64,000 bases of DNA from Escherichia coli. Its GTDB lineage: Bacteria; Pseudomonadota; Gammaproteobacteria; Enterobacterales; Enterobacteriaceae. Position numbers: made by a program. Shown here one piece after another: positions 40,701 through 46,700 of this stretch (position 1 is its first letter; the number at the start of each line of letters is the position of its first letter). The stretch lies in NCBI RefSeq assembly GCF_003334355.1, contig NZ_QOWP01000001.1. One strand, 5' to 3'.

Positions 40701-43700
40701 TCAGCAGGTTATGTACGGTCAGACCATATTTCAGGCAGTGGACGCCGCCGGCATTTTCAGCCACATTGCCGCCAATGGAACAGGCGATTTGTGAGGAAGG
40801 GTCCGGTGCGTAGTAGAGATTATGCGGTGCAACGGCCTGGGAGATCGCCAGGTTACGCACGCCTGGCTGCACGCGCGCGCGGCGACCAACGGGGTTAATG
40901 TCGAGGATCTCTTTAAAGCGCGCCATCACCAACAACACACCTTTTTCCAGCGGCAGCGCGCCACCAGAAAGCCCGGTGCCTGCACCACGGGTCACCACCG
41001 GTACACGCAGGCGATGGCAGACAGCCAGAATCGCTGTCACCTGTTCCATTTGCTTAGGCAGAACAACCAGTAATGGACGCGTGCGATACGCGCTCAACCC
41101 GTCACACTCGTAAGGAATGATCTCCTCATCGGTATGCAGGATCTCAAGTCCAGGGACATGCTCACGCAGTGCCATCAGTACCGATGTGCGGTCGACATCG
41201 GGTAAAGCGCCATCAAGACGCTCTTCGTACAAGATGCTCATGAGTAGGCTTCGCTTTGTTGTGTTGTGTGGCAGCTGATTTTTGCGCGCTGCTTCTGTGA
41301 ACAGTTATTAAGCGGGCTTTTCGTTTTCGTCTATCTCTTTAGCTACCGGTCAGACCATTTTTTTTCCAGCTCTGTGACCTTGTCTTGGTTAACTCAATGT
41401 TAAATTGATGTAACATAATCACTTACGTGATGTGCGTGTTTTGCGAGTTAAGAACAGAAAAATTGGTCCTACCTGTGCACGAGGTCCGGGAATGAAAGAT
41501 GAACGTCGCCCTATTTGCGAAGTGGTTGCAGAGAGTATCGAACGGTTAATTATCGACGGCGTACTGAAGGTCGGTCAGCCGCTTCCCTCGGAACGTCGAC
41601 TGTGTGAAAAGCTCGGCTTCTCACGCTCCGCACTGCGTGAAGGGCTGACCGTGCTGCGCGGGCGCGGGATTATTGAAACGGCGCAGGGTCGCGATTCTCG
41701 TGTCGCACGGCTTAATCGGGTGCAGGACACCAGCCCGCTGATCCATCTGTTCAGTACGCAGCCGCGAACGCTGTACGATCTGCTCGACGTTCGCGCATTA
41801 CTGGAGGGCGAATCGGCAAGGCTGGCGGCAACGCTGGGAACGCAGGCTGATTTTGTTGTGATAACCCGCTGTTATGAAAAAATGCTCGCCGCCAGTGAGA
41901 ACAACAAAGAGATTTCGCTGATCGAACATGCGCAGTTGGATCACGCTTTCCATCTCGCCATTTGTCAGGCTTCTCACAATCAGGTGCTGGTGTTTACGCT
42001 GCAATCATTGACCGATCTGATGTTTAATTCAGTGTTTGCCAGCGTAAATAATCTCTACCATCGACCACAGCAAAAAAAGCAGATCGATCGCCAGCATGCG
42101 CGGATCTACAACGCGGTGTTGCAGCGGCTGCCGCACGTCGCCCAGCGCGCAGCACGCGATCATGTGCGGACCGTGAAAAAGAATCTCCACGATATCGAGC
42201 TGGAAGGCCACCATTTGATTCGCTCGGCGGTGCCGCTGGAGATGAACCTGAGTTAGCTGGTATTAAATCTGCTTTTCATACAATCGGTAACGCTTGTACG
42301 GCTCTGCCCCAATGCGTTCCAGCATGTTATTCATGCCTGTATTGGTTTCGAGGATCCATGACATCTCCAGCGCATCGATCTTCCGGCGGGCAAACGGATC
42401 GCGTAAGGCTTCAATCAATAACAGCGCAATCACCGGGCCGATGCGGCTGAACTGATACTCGTCGCGCACGCCCATCAGCGGTACTCGCGCAGTTCGCACA
42501 CCGCTGACTTTCAAACGCCACAGCAATTTTGCCCAGCCGAAGGGAAAGAGCGATCCGTTCAGATCGGCAATCGCCTCGTTGATGTTCGGCAAGCCGACAA
42601 TAAACGCGCAGGGTGCAGAATCAATCTCAGCGATATAGATCATATCGTCCGGCACCAGATATTTAAGTTGATCGCCCATGGTCGCGAATTCATGTTCGGT
42701 AAACGGCACAAATCCCCAGTTGTGCTGCCAGCCAGAGTTGAAAATCTCACGCAGGATCTGCATCTCTTCGGCAAACCGCTGACGATTGATGCAGCGAATG
42801 GTCACCTTTTTGCGCACCTGATCCATCAGTTTTTTTAGCGCCGGAGAGAAAGTGAGATCGGTTCGCTGCATCCACCACGCCAGTAAATCAATGCCTTTGT
42901 GATAACCCAGTTGTTCAATATGCGCGGCATACCACGGTTTGCCGTGTGGCATCATCGCACAGGGTGGTGTGTCAAAACCTTCAATCAGTAATCCGCTTTC
43001 CTGATTGATATTCAGGCTGAAAGGCCCGCTGATCTTACTTGCACCTTGTGACTTCAACCACGCTTCCGCTACGCCAAACAACGCGGCAAAAACCTGCGGA
43101 TCATCAATGGCGTCAATCATGCCGAAATGACCGGTATCTTTGCCGTAACGCTCGCGGTGCAAGGTATCTATTTGCGCGGTAATACGCCCAACTATCTGCC
43201 CCGCTTTTTTTGCCACCCACGCCTGCCAGATGATATGGTCCGTCCCCGGATTTTTCGCAGACAAATGCTCGTTGCGTTCAATGAATAAAGGGGGTATCCA
43301 GTTTGGATCGTCGGGATAAAGTGATGACGGAAAAGCGATAAATGCCTTAAGGTCATTTTTATTAATTACTTTTTCAATTTTAATCATCAGCAGATCGCAT
43401 TCCATAGTTCTGTTCTGTGGGTAACAAATAATTAACGGTGACAAACAGGTTGCAACAGCAACGAACGGCACCTTAATAATCAACCCAATGAATACAAACG
43501 ACGAATAAATAGTATTTATTAATGATTACGATAAGGTCAGAGACTACACAGAAGCGCCACAATGCCTTTTGTCGATTTAAGGCGACCGGACAAGGCTTCT
43601 TCTTAATACATTCATAAATTAAATATCATTCACAATAAAAACAAAAAACTTAAACTCATTATTTAAATCAATGTTCATTTTCACACCGATGAAAATACTA

Positions 43701-46700
43701 TCTCATTTATCTTTTATGCCTATATAATCCACCGCATTATTGTCATTTTATTTTTGATATCCAATTTTTTCGTGGTGTATATGTCTAATAAAATCTTTAC
43801 GCATTCCCTACCTATGCGCTATGCCGATTTTCCAACGCTGGTTGATGCTTTGGACTACGCCGCTCTGAGTAGCGCCGGAATGAATTTTTATGACAGACGT
43901 TGCCAACTTGAAGATCAACTGGAATATCAGACGTTAAAAACGCGTGCCGAAGCTGGTGCGAAGCGGTTGTTATCGCTGAACCTGAAAAAAGGCGAACGCG
44001 TGGCGCTGATTGCCGAAACGAGTAGCGGGTTCGTAGAGGCTTTTTTTGCCTGCCAGTATGCCGGCTTAGTCGCCGTCCCGTTGGCGATTCCAATGGGCGT
44101 TGGTCAGCGGGATTCCTGGAGCGCCAAATTGCAGGGTTTACTGGCAAGTTGCCAGCCCGCAGCCATTATCACTGGTGATGAGTGGTTGCCACTGGTCAAT
44201 GCCGCGACGCATGACAACCCCGAATTACATGTTTTAAGCCACGCCTGGTTTAAGGCATTACCGGAAGCCGATGTTGCGCTCCAGCGTCCAGTTCCGAACG
44301 ATATCGCCGACCTCCAGTACACCTCCGGCAGCACCCGTTTTCCCCGTGGCGTCATTATCACCCATCGCGAAGTGATGGCTAATCTACGTGCTATAAGCCA
44401 CGACGGCATTAAATTACGCCCTGGCGACCGCTGCGTCTCCTGGCTGCCTTTCTACCATGATATGGGACTGGTCGGCTTTCTCCTGACCCCCGTCGCCACG
44501 CAGCTTTCAGTAGATTATTTGCGCACTCAGGATTTTGCCATACGTCCTCTGCAATGGCTTAAATTGATCAGTAAAAATCGCGGCACCGTTTCCGTTGCGC
44601 CGCCGTTTGGCTATGAATTGTGCCAGCGCCGCGTGAATGAAAAAGATCTCGCTGAACTGGATCTTTCCTGCTGGCGCGTCGCTGGTATTGGTGCAGAACC
44701 CATCTCCGCAGAACAACTCCATCAATTCGCTGAATGTTTCCGTCAGGTTAACTTTGACAATAAAACTTTCATGCCGTGCTACGGACTGGCAGAAAATGCG
44801 CTGGCTGTCAGCTTCTCTGATGAAGCCTCCGGGGTTGTGGTTAACGAAGTGGATCGCGACATCCTCGAATATCAGGGTAAAGCCGTCGCGCCGGGTGCAG
44901 AGACACGCGCCGTATCGACTTTCGTCAACTGCGGCAAAGCGTTGCCGGAACATGGTATTGAAATCCGCAATGAAGCAGGTATGCCGGTCGCGGAACGTGT
45001 GGTAGGCCATATTTGCATCTCCGGTCCCAGTCTGATGAGCGGTTACTTTGGCGACCAGGCTTCGCAAGACGAGATTGCCGCGACGGGCTGGTTAGACACC
45101 GGCGACCTCGGTTATCTGCTGGACGGTTATCTGTATGTCACCGGACGCATTAAAGATCTGATTATTATTCGTGGCCGTAATATCTGGCCGCAGGATATTG
45201 AATATATAGCGGAACAGGAACCGGAAATTCATTCTGGCGATGCGATTGCTTTTGTTACCGCCCAGGAAAAAATCATTTTGCAGATCCAGTGTCGGATCAG
45301 CGACGAAGAACGTCGCGGGCAGCTTATCCACGCGCTGGCGGCACGGATCCAAAGCGAATTTGGCGTGACCGCGGCTATCGATCTGTTGCCGCCCCACAGT
45401 ATTCCCCGAACGTCCTCCGGCAAGCCTGCCCGTGCGGAAGCGAAAAAACGTTATCAGAAGGCTTATGCTGCCAGTCTTAATGTGCAGGAATCCCTGGCAT
45501 GAATCAAACTGTCGCGGTGACGGGCGCTACCGGGTTTATCGGTAAATATATTATCGATAACCTGCTCGCCCGCGGCTTTCACGTTCGCGCATTGACGCGT
45601 ACTGCCCGCGCTCACGTCAATGATAATCTCACCTGGGTGCGCGGTTCGCTGGAAGATACTCATTCACTTAGCGAGCTGGTTGCCGGAGCCAGCGTAGTGG
45701 TCCATTGCGCCGGGCAAGTGCGCGGGCACAAAGAAGAGATTTTCACCCGCTGTAACGTTGACGGCAGCCTGCGCCTGATGCAAGCAGCAAAAGAGAGCGG
45801 CTTTTGCCAACGTTTTCTGTTTATCTCTTCGCTGGCGGCGCGCCATCCCGAGCTCTCCTGGTATGCAAAATCCAAATACGTCGCCGAGCAACGACTGGCA
45901 GCAATGGCGGACGAAATTACGCTGGGCGTTTTTCGCCCGACAGCCGTGTATGGTCCCGGCGATAAAGAGTTAAAACCGCTGTTTGACTGGATGCTGCGCG
46001 GCCTGCTGCCACGACTTGGTGCGCCAGATACACAGCTCTCTTTTCTGCACGTCACCGATTTCGCGCAAGCAGTGGGTCAGTGGTTAAGCGCCGAAACTAT
46101 ACAGACGCAAACCTATGAATTATGCGATGGCGTCGCCGGCGGCTATGACTGGCAACGCGTACAGCAACTTGCCGCCGACGCCCGTTGCGGTTCCGTGCGA
46201 ATGGTTGGCATTCCTCTGCCGGTACTCACCGGCCTTGCGGATATCAGTACCGCGTTGAGTCGCCTGGCAGGTAAAGAACCTATGCTGACCCGCTCGAAAA
46301 TTCGTGAATTAACCCACGCCGACTGGTCGGCAAGTAATAACCGTATTTCTGAAGATATTAATTGGTTTCCCGGGATTAGCCTGGAACACGCATTACGCAA
46401 CGGGCTATTTTGATTGTCTTGTTTAAAGGTGTGTTAACGTTTCTATGGTAAATCGTGAAATAGTAATGGATTACATCCTTTCCTGTTTACAGGATTTGGT
46501 CGAAAACGGTGTGGAAATTAAGCCCGACAGCGATCTCGTCAACGATCTTGGCCTGGAGTCGATCAAAGTGATGGATCTCTTAATGATGCTGGAAGACAGA
46601 TTCGATATTTCCATTCCTATTAATATTCTGCTGGATGTCAAAACCCCTGCGCAATTAATGGAAACTCTACTTCCATGGCTGGAGAATAAATAATGGGGCT

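What the first reader, a model, noticed from the sequence alone, without database searches (positions are those of the whole stretch)
43484..43753. AT-rich divergent control region between yghO and the FAAL operon
270 bp of AT-rich sequence (including ttgtcattttatttttgatatccaattttttcgtgg) separates the divergently transcribed GNAT gene and the four-gene operon. This places both halves of the putative lipid pathway under one bidirectional control region and suggests the locus is normally silenced.
Basis: inference. Interest (0 to 1): 0.3.

Follow-up and report, generated by a model that had tools for sequence, protein, structure and literature searches.

The report
Control region of E. coli's sphingolipid genes
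This is the AT-rich stretch between the two divergently read halves of E. coli's known but apparently unused sphingolipid (ceramide) gene cluster; it is an ordinary kind of promoter region and nobody has studied it, so it is the place to look for when E. coli makes these lipids.

Summary
The AT-rich region is real, but its stated limits (43484-43753) are the edges of maximal TTG-started ORFs. The real intergenic region is 43406-43780: 375 bp, GC 0.32, against 0.52 for the window.

It lies between yghO (-) and a FAAL-SDR-ACP-spt operon (+). The literature already identifies this locus as the E. coli dihydroceramide cluster (aca/yghO, aasR, epi, acpR, spt; PMC9386255).

The divergent layout, with a long AT-rich gap, is kept in about 41 loci from some 15 genera of Enterobacterales and in Pseudomonas.

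Constraint is lopsided. The 91 bp next to the FAAL gene (43690-43780) are 98-100% identical across Escherichia clades, whose synonymous sites are only 74-89% identical. This block holds a perfect TATAAT (43723-43728) with no -35. The 250 bp next to yghO evolve at or above the neutral rate.

No RNA family, RNA structure, repeat, conserved small ORF, phased A-tract or strong transcription-factor site was found.

Silencing is plausible but unproven. Support comes from AT/TpA richness, weak translation signals, no detectable SPT activity in BL21 hosts, and five IS1/IS5 junctions within about 520 bp. About 24% of complete genomes lack the region. An equally AT-rich neighbouring promoter (sslE) is H-NS-repressed.

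Verdict: partly supported, ordinary kind, modest interest.

The parts
42263..43405 (-). yghO (published as 'aca', the N-acyltransferase / ceramide-synthase-type gene of the cluster), 380 aa
   Evidence: PGAP annotation in E41 and PSS-12. PMC9386255 names yghO/ECD_02850 as aca. There is no Pfam or NCBIfam hit. The AF2 model matches tandem-GNAT folds.
43406..43780 (.). True yghO/FAAL intergenic region, 375 bp, GC 0.32. The finding's 43484-43753 is a subset of it.
   Evidence: Present at 80% coverage or more in 4135 of 5426 complete E. coli genomes, at 91-100% identity, single copy.
43406..43654 (.). Fast-evolving spacer on the yghO side. AT-rich except for a GC-richer island at about 43525-43599. 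It must hold yghO's own promoter, which was not located.
   Evidence: 61-95% identity to Escherichia clades, against 74-89% at third codon positions. Indels of 5, 1 and 9 bp among E. coli strains. GC profile. The 31-aa ORF at 43522-43617 is broken by a stop in strain THO-015.
43655..43780 (+). Conserved block on the FAAL side: candidate promoter, operator and leader of the FAAL-SDR-ACP-spt operon. The core is 43690-43780.
   Evidence: 92-95% identity (core 97.8-100%) to Escherichia clades whose synonymous sites are 74-89% identical. Invariant in 8 E. coli strains. Partly alignable to Pseudocitrobacter.
43677..43696 (.). Inverted repeat ATTTTCA-N6-TGAAAAT, a candidate operator
   Evidence: Read. 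It is the only match in the 64-kb window with fewer than 3 mismatches. The arms vary slightly among strains. No regulator is assigned.
43723..43728 (+). Perfect -10 hexamer TATAAT with no recognisable -35. It is the best candidate for the operon promoter, with a predicted start near 43735.
   Evidence: Sequence. The exact 23-mer TTTATCTTTTATGCCTATATAAT is present in all nine further E. coli loci examined and in Escherichia sp. locus L013; L012, L014 and L015 differ at one base outside the hexamer. The block TTTAYCTTTYATRnCwATATAA is shared with Pseudocitrobacter. A YATART-like box lies 50-70 nt upstream of the FAAL ATG in most genera. The start site is inferred, not measured.
43736..43763 (-). 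Promoter-like site on the yghO strand (TGGATA-16-AATAAT) inside the conserved block
   Evidence: Consensus scan. That scan found 3 sites where 2.3 +/- 1.6 are expected by chance, so this is a lead only.
43772..43783 (+). Start-codon cluster GTG-GTG-TAT-ATG of the FAAL gene. The Shine-Dalgarno is weak or absent. A further in-frame ATG at 43814 is the start PGAP uses in many genomes.
   Evidence: Annotated starts differ between genomes.
43781..45502 (+). Fatty acyl-AMP ligase (aasR / EcFAAL)
   Evidence: Near-identical to PDB 3PBK. NCBIfam NF006624 scores 867 bits against a cut-off of 600. It loads the cognate ACP in vitro (PMC8460268).
45499..46413 (+). NAD-dependent epimerase/dehydratase-family reductase ('epi', ceramide-reductase-type)
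   Evidence: PGAP name. Only weak SDR-family hits in NCBIfam. Named epi/ECD_02852 in PMC9386255.
46445..46693 (+). Specialised acyl carrier protein (acpR)
   Evidence: ACP models hit below their cut-offs. ECD_02853 was shown to carry 4'-phosphopantetheine (PMC9386255).
46693..47865 (+). Serine palmitoyltransferase (spt)
   Evidence: NCBIfam equivalog NF047599 scores 599 bits against a cut-off of 500. SPT activity of the BL21 enzyme is shown in PMC9386255.
47868..47902 (.). 16-bp-stem GC-rich hairpin between the convergent spt and lptG2-like genes; the likely end of the operon

Best explanation
The region is the divergent promoter and leader region of E. coli's sphingolipid (dihydroceramide) gene cluster. 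It has two parts.

(1) The 91-126 bp next to the FAAL gene are under strong purifying selection. They most likely hold the promoter of the FAAL-SDR-ACP-spt operon: a perfect -10 TATAAT at 43723-43728 with no -35, so probably weak or activator-dependent. They also hold a candidate operator, the inverted repeat at 43677-43696, and a U-rich leader of about 45 nt with a poor ribosome-binding site.

(2) The roughly 250 bp next to yghO are a fast-evolving spacer rich in AT and TpA. This spacer holds yghO's own weak promoter. Because of its composition it is probably bound by H-NS/StpA.

The net result is very low expression of both units under laboratory conditions, until an unknown signal acts on the conserved block.

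Shown: the anatomy, the conservation pattern, the conserved synteny and the gene identities. Inferred: the promoter position, H-NS binding, silencing and co-regulation.
For: Locus identity:
- FAAL is near-identical to PDB 3PBK.
- Spt and FAAL pass their NCBIfam cut-offs.
- YghO has a tandem-GNAT fold.
- PMC9386255 names yghO-aasR-epi-acpR-spt as the BL21 dihydroceramide genes.

Anatomy:
- GC is 0.32 over 375 bp, third lowest of 18 intergenic regions.
- The TpA density is 9.3 per 100 bp against 4.2 for the window.

Constraint:
- 43690-43780 is 97.8-100% identical to four Escherichia clades or species.
- In the same comparisons third codon positions are 74-89% identical and first and second positions 97.5-98.6%.
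- 43406-43654 is 61-95% identical.

The TATAAT block is shared with Pseudocitrobacter. A -10-like box and a leader motif recur upstream of the FAAL ATG in most genera.

The divergent pairing, with an intergenic gap 10-25 GC points below its flanks, is kept in about 41 loci across some 15 genera. The outer flank of yghO differs by genus.

Low expression:
- BL21(DE3) empty-vector extracts form no 3-oxo-sphinganine although the strain carries the cluster. An E. coli B strain has this intergenic region at 98.8% identity.
- None of the candidate start codons has a good Shine-Dalgarno.

Local precedent: the equally AT-rich sslE promoter in the same window is H-NS-repressed.
Against: - No transcription start, ChIP or expression data exist for this region. 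Literature searches found none.
- The -10 assignment rests on sequence and conservation only. The generic promoter scan found no more sites than chance.
- Part of the conservation at 43750-43780 may reflect translation initiation or an N-terminal extension rather than transcription control.
- Gene bodies have genome-average GC, there is no A-tract phasing, and the match to the H-NS motif is only 8 of 10. The picture is therefore not that of a classic xenogeneically silenced island.
- The BL21 result is a detection-limit negative from experiments not designed to test native expression.
Confidence: 0.5

Rival explanations
1. One reading: one shared bidirectional control region, coated by H-NS/StpA, silences both yghO and the operon together and releases both under the same signal.
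For: - The gene pair is divergent and its synteny is conserved across genera.
- AT and TpA content are high.
- Promoter-like sites on both strands lie within the same conserved block.
- A neighbouring AT-rich promoter is H-NS-repressed.
- The BL21 host shows no native activity.
Against: - Conservation is one-sided.
- The inverted repeat is not centred between the genes and recurs nowhere else in the cluster.
- There is no curvature signal.
- Flanking genes are not AT-rich.
- No binding or expression data exist.
Confidence: 0.3
2. An ordinary pair of independent weak promoters. AT-richness is just what promoter-bearing intergenic DNA looks like, and there is neither active silencing nor a dedicated regulator.
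For: - Four intergenic regions in this one window are equally AT-rich.
- Promoter-like sites are no more frequent than chance.
- No strong transcription-factor site was found.
- No Rfam hit and no RNA structure signal.
Against: - A block 91 bp long is as constrained as first and second codon positions. That is more than a bare -10 element needs.
- The gap is long (270-1100 bp) and kept in every genus examined.
- No product was detectable in a host that carries the cluster.
Confidence: 0.2
3. Control is mainly post-transcriptional. The conserved leader and start-codon cluster act through a short upstream ORF, an alternative start or small-RNA pairing to gate translation of the FAAL gene.
For: - The leader motif GGTGATTTTnAATCTATGGCT...TGTATATG is conserved across genera.
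- It includes an upstream ATG that is in frame in most genera, out of frame in Serratia marcescens-group loci, and forms a two-codon ORF in Hafnia.
- E. coli has GTG-GTG-TAT-ATG and no good Shine-Dalgarno.
- An AU-rich inverted repeat (43745-43763 with 43776-43794) flanks the start codon.
Against: - The predicted fold of the leader is no more stable than shuffled sequence, z = -0.76.
- There is no sequence variation within Escherichia on which to test covariation.
- The motif could simply be a ribosome-binding site plus the true start codon.
Confidence: 0.15

Closest known systems
Caulobacter crescentus sphingolipid locus (ccna_01212-01226 / CC_1152-CC_1165; spt, acpR, aasR, cerR/epi, bcerS/aca, lptF2G2C2)
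   Same: It has the same five enzymes for dihydroceramide synthesis, and LptF/G paralogues lie next to them. The E. coli proteins substitute in part for the Caulobacter ones in vivo (PMC9386255; bioRxiv 10.64898/2026.04.12.717747).
   Different: By its gene number (CC_1154 against CC_1162-1165), the Caulobacter N-acyltransferase gene lies several genes away from the spt operon and is not its divergent neighbour. The yghO<>FAAL divergent pair with its AT-rich gap was seen here in Enterobacterales and Pseudomonas. No nucleotide homology of the control region was found outside Escherichia and Pseudocitrobacter.
H-NS-repressed AT-rich promoter regions of E. coli, for example the sslE (yghJ) promoter about 11 kb away in this same window
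   Same: Base composition is comparable: GC about 0.30 over 300-480 bp. Both lie upstream of accessory envelope-related genes. sslE is strongly H-NS-repressed at ambient temperature (PMC5012682).
   Different: For sslE, repression, a 5'-RACE start site and a Fis site were shown by experiment. Nothing has been measured for the yghO/FAAL region. Its flanking genes have normal GC and it shows no phased A-tracts.
Conserved divergently transcribed gene pairs as markers of co-regulation (Korbel et al. 2004; recalled from memory, not read here)
   Same: A head-to-head pair is kept across many genera with its intergenic region.
   Different: In the classic cases one partner is usually a transcription factor that regulates the other. 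Here both partners are enzymes, and no regulator gene is conserved next to the cluster.

Membership tests
Bacterial sphingolipid (dihydroceramide) synthesis cluster | Serine palmitoyltransferase | tested here: met
   NCBIfam equivalog NF047599 scores 599 bits against a cut-off of 500. Activity of the BL21 enzyme is published.
Bacterial sphingolipid (dihydroceramide) synthesis cluster | Specialised ACP gene directly upstream of spt, plus a cognate acyl-ACP synthetase (FAAL) | tested here: met
   The ACP ORF 46445-46693 abuts spt. The FAAL is near-identical to PDB 3PBK and passes NF006624. The FAAL loads its ACP in vitro.
Bacterial sphingolipid (dihydroceramide) synthesis cluster | Ceramide-synthase-type N-acyltransferase (bCerS/aca) and a reductase (CerR/epi) | tested here: inconclusive
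   YghO has no Pfam, NCBIfam or PDB sequence hit but folds as a tandem GNAT. The SDR gives only weak generic hits. The assignment as aca and epi is taken from PMC9386255. Homology to the Caulobacter proteins was not recomputed here.
Bacterial sphingolipid (dihydroceramide) synthesis cluster | The organism actually makes ceramide or sphingolipid | not testable with these tools
   No paper found reports native production by E. coli. BL21 empty-vector controls were negative for 3-oxo-sphinganine.
H-NS/StpA-silenced promoter region | AT content well above the genome average over at least 100-200 bp, with many TpA steps | tested here: met
   GC is 0.32 over 375 bp and 0.23 over 183 bp, against 0.52 for the window. 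TpA density is 9.3 against 4.2 per 100 bp.
H-NS/StpA-silenced promoter region | High-affinity nucleation motif (TCGATAAATT-like; consensus recalled from memory) | tested here: inconclusive
   The best match is 8 of 10, TTCATAAATT at 43611-43620.
H-NS/StpA-silenced promoter region | Intrinsic curvature or phased A-tracts | tested here: not met
   The AA/TT 10-11.5-bp periodicity is no stronger than in shuffles, p about 0.28.
H-NS/StpA-silenced promoter region | In vivo occupancy (ChIP) and derepression in hns mutants | not testable with these tools
   No data found. K-12, the strain with most ChIP data, lacks the region.
Bidirectional (shared) promoter region | Head-to-head genes with the pairing conserved across taxa | tested here: met
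Bidirectional (shared) promoter region | Promoters on both strands that share or overlap regulatory elements | tested here: inconclusive
   There is a TATAAT on the + strand. The - strand has TGGATA-16-AATAAT in the same conserved block, in a scan whose hit count is at chance level. Conservation is one-sided.

The most novel reading that the evidence does not exclude
The conserved block of 91-126 bp, with its cross-genus leader motif, is a dedicated switch for a cryptic sphingolipid pathway carried by about three quarters of E. coli strains and by many other Enterobacterales. It would combine an operator for an unidentified regulator with a translational gate. Finding its signal would reveal when these bacteria put ceramides into their envelope.
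Probability: 0.2. Interest if true: 0.55.

Novelty: new member of a known kind. Interest (0 to 1): 0.27.

Why it matters
E. coli is not thought of as a sphingolipid producer. Yet 76% of complete genomes carry this control region, and the five biosynthetic genes around it are intact in this window. Those enzymes work when over-expressed. If the cluster is merely switched off in the laboratory, this 375-bp region is where the switch is. The 91-bp invariant block gives a small, concrete target for reporter fusions, protein pull-downs and promoter swaps. As a sequence feature it is an ordinary AT-rich divergent promoter region; its value is practical rather than conceptual.

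Tried and rejected
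**Searches that found nothing**
- Rfam at a permissive E-value over 42000-45000: no hit.
- RNA folds of the operon leader and of a putative long yghO leader: z = -0.76 and -0.67, no signal.
- Direct repeats: none. Inverted repeats: only weak AU-rich ones.
- A-tract phasing: not significant.
- The intergenic region is single copy per genome, so it is not a repeat or mobile element.

**Small ORFs**
- The 31-aa ORF at 43522-43617 carries a stop in strain THO-015 and lies in indel-rich sequence.
- The long intergenic regions of other genera hold no shared ORF.

**Consensus scan for about 40 regulators and sigma factors (consensi recalled from memory)**
- Nothing convincing was found.
- An ArcA-like site (13 of 15, 43422-43436) and an RcsB-like site (11 of 14, 43592-43605) lie in poorly conserved sequence.
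- A sigma-E-like AAACTT-N16-TCAAT is not conserved among strains.
- The sigma-54-like match lacks the invariant GG.

**A dedicated regulator next to the cluster**
- The outer flank of yghO differs by genus and holds no conserved regulator.

**Two errors of my own, corrected**
1. In one search the FAAL protein was translated out of frame. This produced a false signal that the FAAL had diverged far more than its neighbours. The correct frame gives 95-96% identity in Escherichia and 66-80% elsewhere.
2. The intergenic-GC table used coordinates from a strain that is not colinear with the first 31 kb of the window. One search replaces it.

**Literature**
- No paper on regulation of this region was found.
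- The supplements of an ETEC H-NS/CRP ChIP-seq paper do not mention yghO.
- A UTI89 proteome supplement, truncated when stored, lists no YghO or Spt. This is weak negative evidence only.

Full report
**What is at the coordinates**

The window is E. coli chromosome. From 32615 to 64000 it is 99.97% identical to strain PSS-12, with a different insert at 26147-32614.

The finding's span, 43484-43753, is exactly the gap between two maximal ORFs that begin at TTG codons. Annotated and comparative evidence place the gene starts further apart.
- yghO starts at ATG 43405.
- The FAAL gene starts at ATG 43781. This start was used for the crystal-structure construct 3PBK. The N-terminal peptide MS(N/E)xxxTHSLPMRYADF is conserved across genera.
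- GTG 43772 and ATG 43814 remain possible. PGAP uses 43781 in some genomes and 43814 in others.

The real intergenic region is therefore 43406-43780: 375 bp, GC 0.32. Only four places in the 64 kb are that AT-rich.

Among 18 annotated intergenic regions it ranks third lowest, after yghS/yghT and pitB/gss. The region upstream of sslE is similar. AT-richness is uneven. A GC-richer island lies at about 43525-43599, and the AT-richest part is 43600-43800.

**What the flanking genes are**

- The operon's first gene is the structurally solved E. coli fatty acyl-AMP ligase.
- The last gene passes NCBI's equivalog model for serine palmitoyltransferase.
- An ACP gene abuts spt.
- The four ORFs overlap or are at most 31 nt apart and end at a strong hairpin, 47868-47902.
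- YghO matches no Pfam, NCBIfam or PDB sequence. Its AlphaFold model (pLDDT 73, pTM 0.75) matches tandem-GNAT acyltransferases at E 1e-12 to 1e-10.

The literature already describes this locus. Padilla-Gomez et al. 2022 (PMC9386255) name ECD_02850 (yghO, aca), 02851 (aasR), 02852 (epi), 02853 (acpR) and 02854 (spt) of BL21(DE3) as the five dihydroceramide genes, and show activity of the last three. A 2026 preprint draws the E. coli UTI89 locus with LptF/G paralogues. The 'putative lipid pathway' is thus a known sphingolipid cluster. I found nothing published on its control region.

**Distribution and synteny**

The intergenic region is present at 80% coverage or more, in single copy, in 4135 of 5426 complete E. 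coli genomes, at 91-100% identity.

A scan of one genome per species found 44 loci encoding YghO relatives. In about 41 of them the FAAL-SDR-ACP-spt operon lies head-to-head with yghO. These include Shimwellia, Citrobacter, Pluralibacter, Pseudocitrobacter, Serratia, Tatumella, Klebsiella indica, Erwinia, Rosenbergiella, Rahnella, Cedecea, Hafnia, Pantoea, Sodalis and Pseudomonas. The gap is 270-1100 bp, and its GC is 10-25 points below that of the flanking genes.

The outer flank of yghO differs by genus and holds no conserved regulator. The gene pair and its gap therefore move as a unit. The long gaps contain no shared ORF. They have no nucleotide homology to the E. coli region, except in Escherichia clades and, weakly, in Pseudocitrobacter.

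**Conservation pattern, the most informative result**

I compared the window with four Escherichia clades or species.

| Segment | Identity |
|---|---|
| Third codon positions of yghO and FAAL | 74-89% |
| First and second codon positions | 97.5-98.6% |
| 43690-43780 (next to the FAAL gene) | 97.8-100% |
| 43655-43780 | 92-95% |
| 43406-43654 (next to yghO) | 61-95% |

All figures are; sliding identity is.

Eight E. coli strains show the same picture. The yghO side has indels of 5, 1 and 9 bp, and the FAAL side is invariant.

The invariant block contains:
- a perfect TATAAT at 43723-43728 with no usable -35;
- the inverted repeat ATTTTCA-N6-TGAAAAT at 43677-43696, unique in the window;
- a U-rich leader ending in GTG-GTG-TAT-ATG, without a good Shine-Dalgarno.

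The segment TTTAYCTTTYATRnCwATATAA is shared with Pseudocitrobacter. Most other genera have a YATART-like box 50-70 nt upstream of the FAAL ATG and a leader motif GGTGATTTTnAATCTATGGCT. That motif includes an upstream ATG that is usually in frame, but is out of frame in the Serratia marcescens group.

A promoter-like site on the yghO strand (TGGATA-16-AATAAT, 43763-43736) also falls in the block. The scan that found it gave no more hits than chance.

**Tests that were negative**

- No Rfam family.
- No RNA structure beyond shuffled sequence.
- No direct repeats.
- No conserved small ORF.
- No A-tract phasing.
- No convincing site for about 40 regulators or alternative sigma factors whose consensi I recalled from memory.

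**Is it silenced?**

Indirect support:
- AT and TpA content are high.
- The translation signals are weak.
- BL21(DE3) extracts with an empty vector form no 3-oxo-sphinganine, although the strain carries the cluster. An E. coli B genome has this intergenic region at 98.8% identity.
- One of the window's other equally AT-rich promoter regions, sslE, is strongly H-NS-repressed at ambient temperature (PMC5012682).

The neighbourhood is also a hot spot for insertion sequences and for loss of the cluster.
- IS1 junctions lie at 43335, 43399 and 43449 in three strains, each with a deletion running to yghT or gss.
- An IS1 insertion lies at 43844-43853 in strain LD93-1.
- The K-12 IS5 junction is at 43365, with deletion of the operon.
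- About 24% of complete genomes lack the region.
- In the window's own strain the LptG paralogue carries a nonsense codon found in only 1 of 3697 genomes.

These facts fit a dispensable, little-used locus. They do not prove silencing.

Against a classic H-NS-silenced island:
- The genes themselves have normal GC.
- There is no curvature signal.
- The best match to the H-NS motif is 8 of 10.

No ChIP or mutant data exist for strains that carry the region. K-12 lacks it.

**Interpretation**

The best reading is a composite divergent promoter/leader region. A tightly constrained promoter, operator and leader serves the four-gene operon. Beside it lies a loosely constrained AT-rich spacer holding yghO's promoter. 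Expression is low in the laboratory, and the region is probably occupied by H-NS/StpA (confidence about 0.5).

A plain pair of weak promoters (about 0.2) and mainly translational control (about 0.15) remain open.

**Novelty and score**

The gene cluster is already known. The control region is an uncharacterised example of a familiar kind of sequence. The new points here are:
- the corrected boundaries;
- the asymmetric constraint and the 91-bp invariant block;
- the conserved synteny across Enterobacterales;
- the clustering of insertion sequences and deletions.

Interest is modest, 0.27. It would rise only if the conserved block proved to be a dedicated switch for cryptic ceramide synthesis.

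Noticed in passing
window 47900-48979 (-), stop codon at 48233-48235: The LptG paralogue of the sphingolipid locus (lptG2-like) carries an in-frame TAG (Gln to stop) at about codon 249 of 359. PGAP marks it 'internal stop' in strain PSS-12. A 61-mer spanning the TAG matches exactly in only 1 of 3697 E. coli genomes that have this gene, so the mutation is private to this lineage. Any sphingolipid export in this strain is probably broken.
   Followed up: yes
window 43335, 43365, 43399, 43449, 43844-43853 (junction positions seen in other strains; loci L002, L004, L056-L058): Five independent IS1/IS5 junctions fall within about 520 bp around the intergenic region. Three are IS1-linked deletions running to yghT or gss. 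One is an IS1 insertion in the 5' end of the FAAL gene. One is the K-12 IS5, whose junction at 43365 removes the first ~13 codons of yghO, the intergenic region and the whole operon. The AT-rich zone is a hot spot for insertion and for loss of the cluster.
   Followed up: partly
window 54372-54544, 56786-57076, 32351-32816: Three other intergenic regions are as AT-rich as the finding, with GC 0.29-0.30: the yghS/yghT divergent gap, the region upstream of pitB (pitB/gss), and the region upstream of sslE. The sslE promoter is experimentally H-NS-repressed (PMC5012682). The other two flank the far end of the same accessory locus.
   Followed up: partly
window 43772-43816: The start codon of the FAAL gene is annotated inconsistently across RefSeq genomes (ATG 43781 or ATG 43814). 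Related genera have a further upstream in-frame ATG with a good ribosome-binding site. That ATG is out of frame in the Serratia marcescens group and forms a two-codon ORF in Hafnia. In E. coli the equivalent codon is GTG 43772.
   Followed up: partly
window 42263-43405 (-): YghO is highly conserved (84% mean column identity across 24 homologues, mostly from different genera), yet no Pfam or NCBIfam model and no PDB sequence matches it. Only the predicted fold (tandem GNAT) places it. The family seems to lack a curated profile.
   Followed up: yes
window 27770-32350 (-) and 26147-32614: The sslE (yghJ/acfD-like) gene appears split into two ORFs of 926 and 569 aa. This 6.5-kb stretch is replaced by an IS1 in the otherwise near-identical strain PSS-12, where gspF of the adjacent type II secretion operon is also marked 'internal stop'. 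Several accessory envelope loci in this lineage look decayed.
   Followed up: no
window 47868-47902: A 16-bp-stem GC-rich hairpin sits between the convergent spt and lptG2-like genes. It is a likely two-way terminator.
   Followed up: no
L054 (NZ_SDSC01000040.1, 430 bp): A 430-bp contig with coverage 0.8 in a Macrococcus assembly is 99% identical at protein level to E. coli yghO. It is almost certainly contamination of that assembly.
   Followed up: no
L039 (Shimwellia pseudoproteus, second contig): Shimwellia carries a second yghO paralogue (73% identity) with no FAAL-spt operon within the 4 kb fetched on either side, in addition to the copy in the cluster.
   Followed up: no
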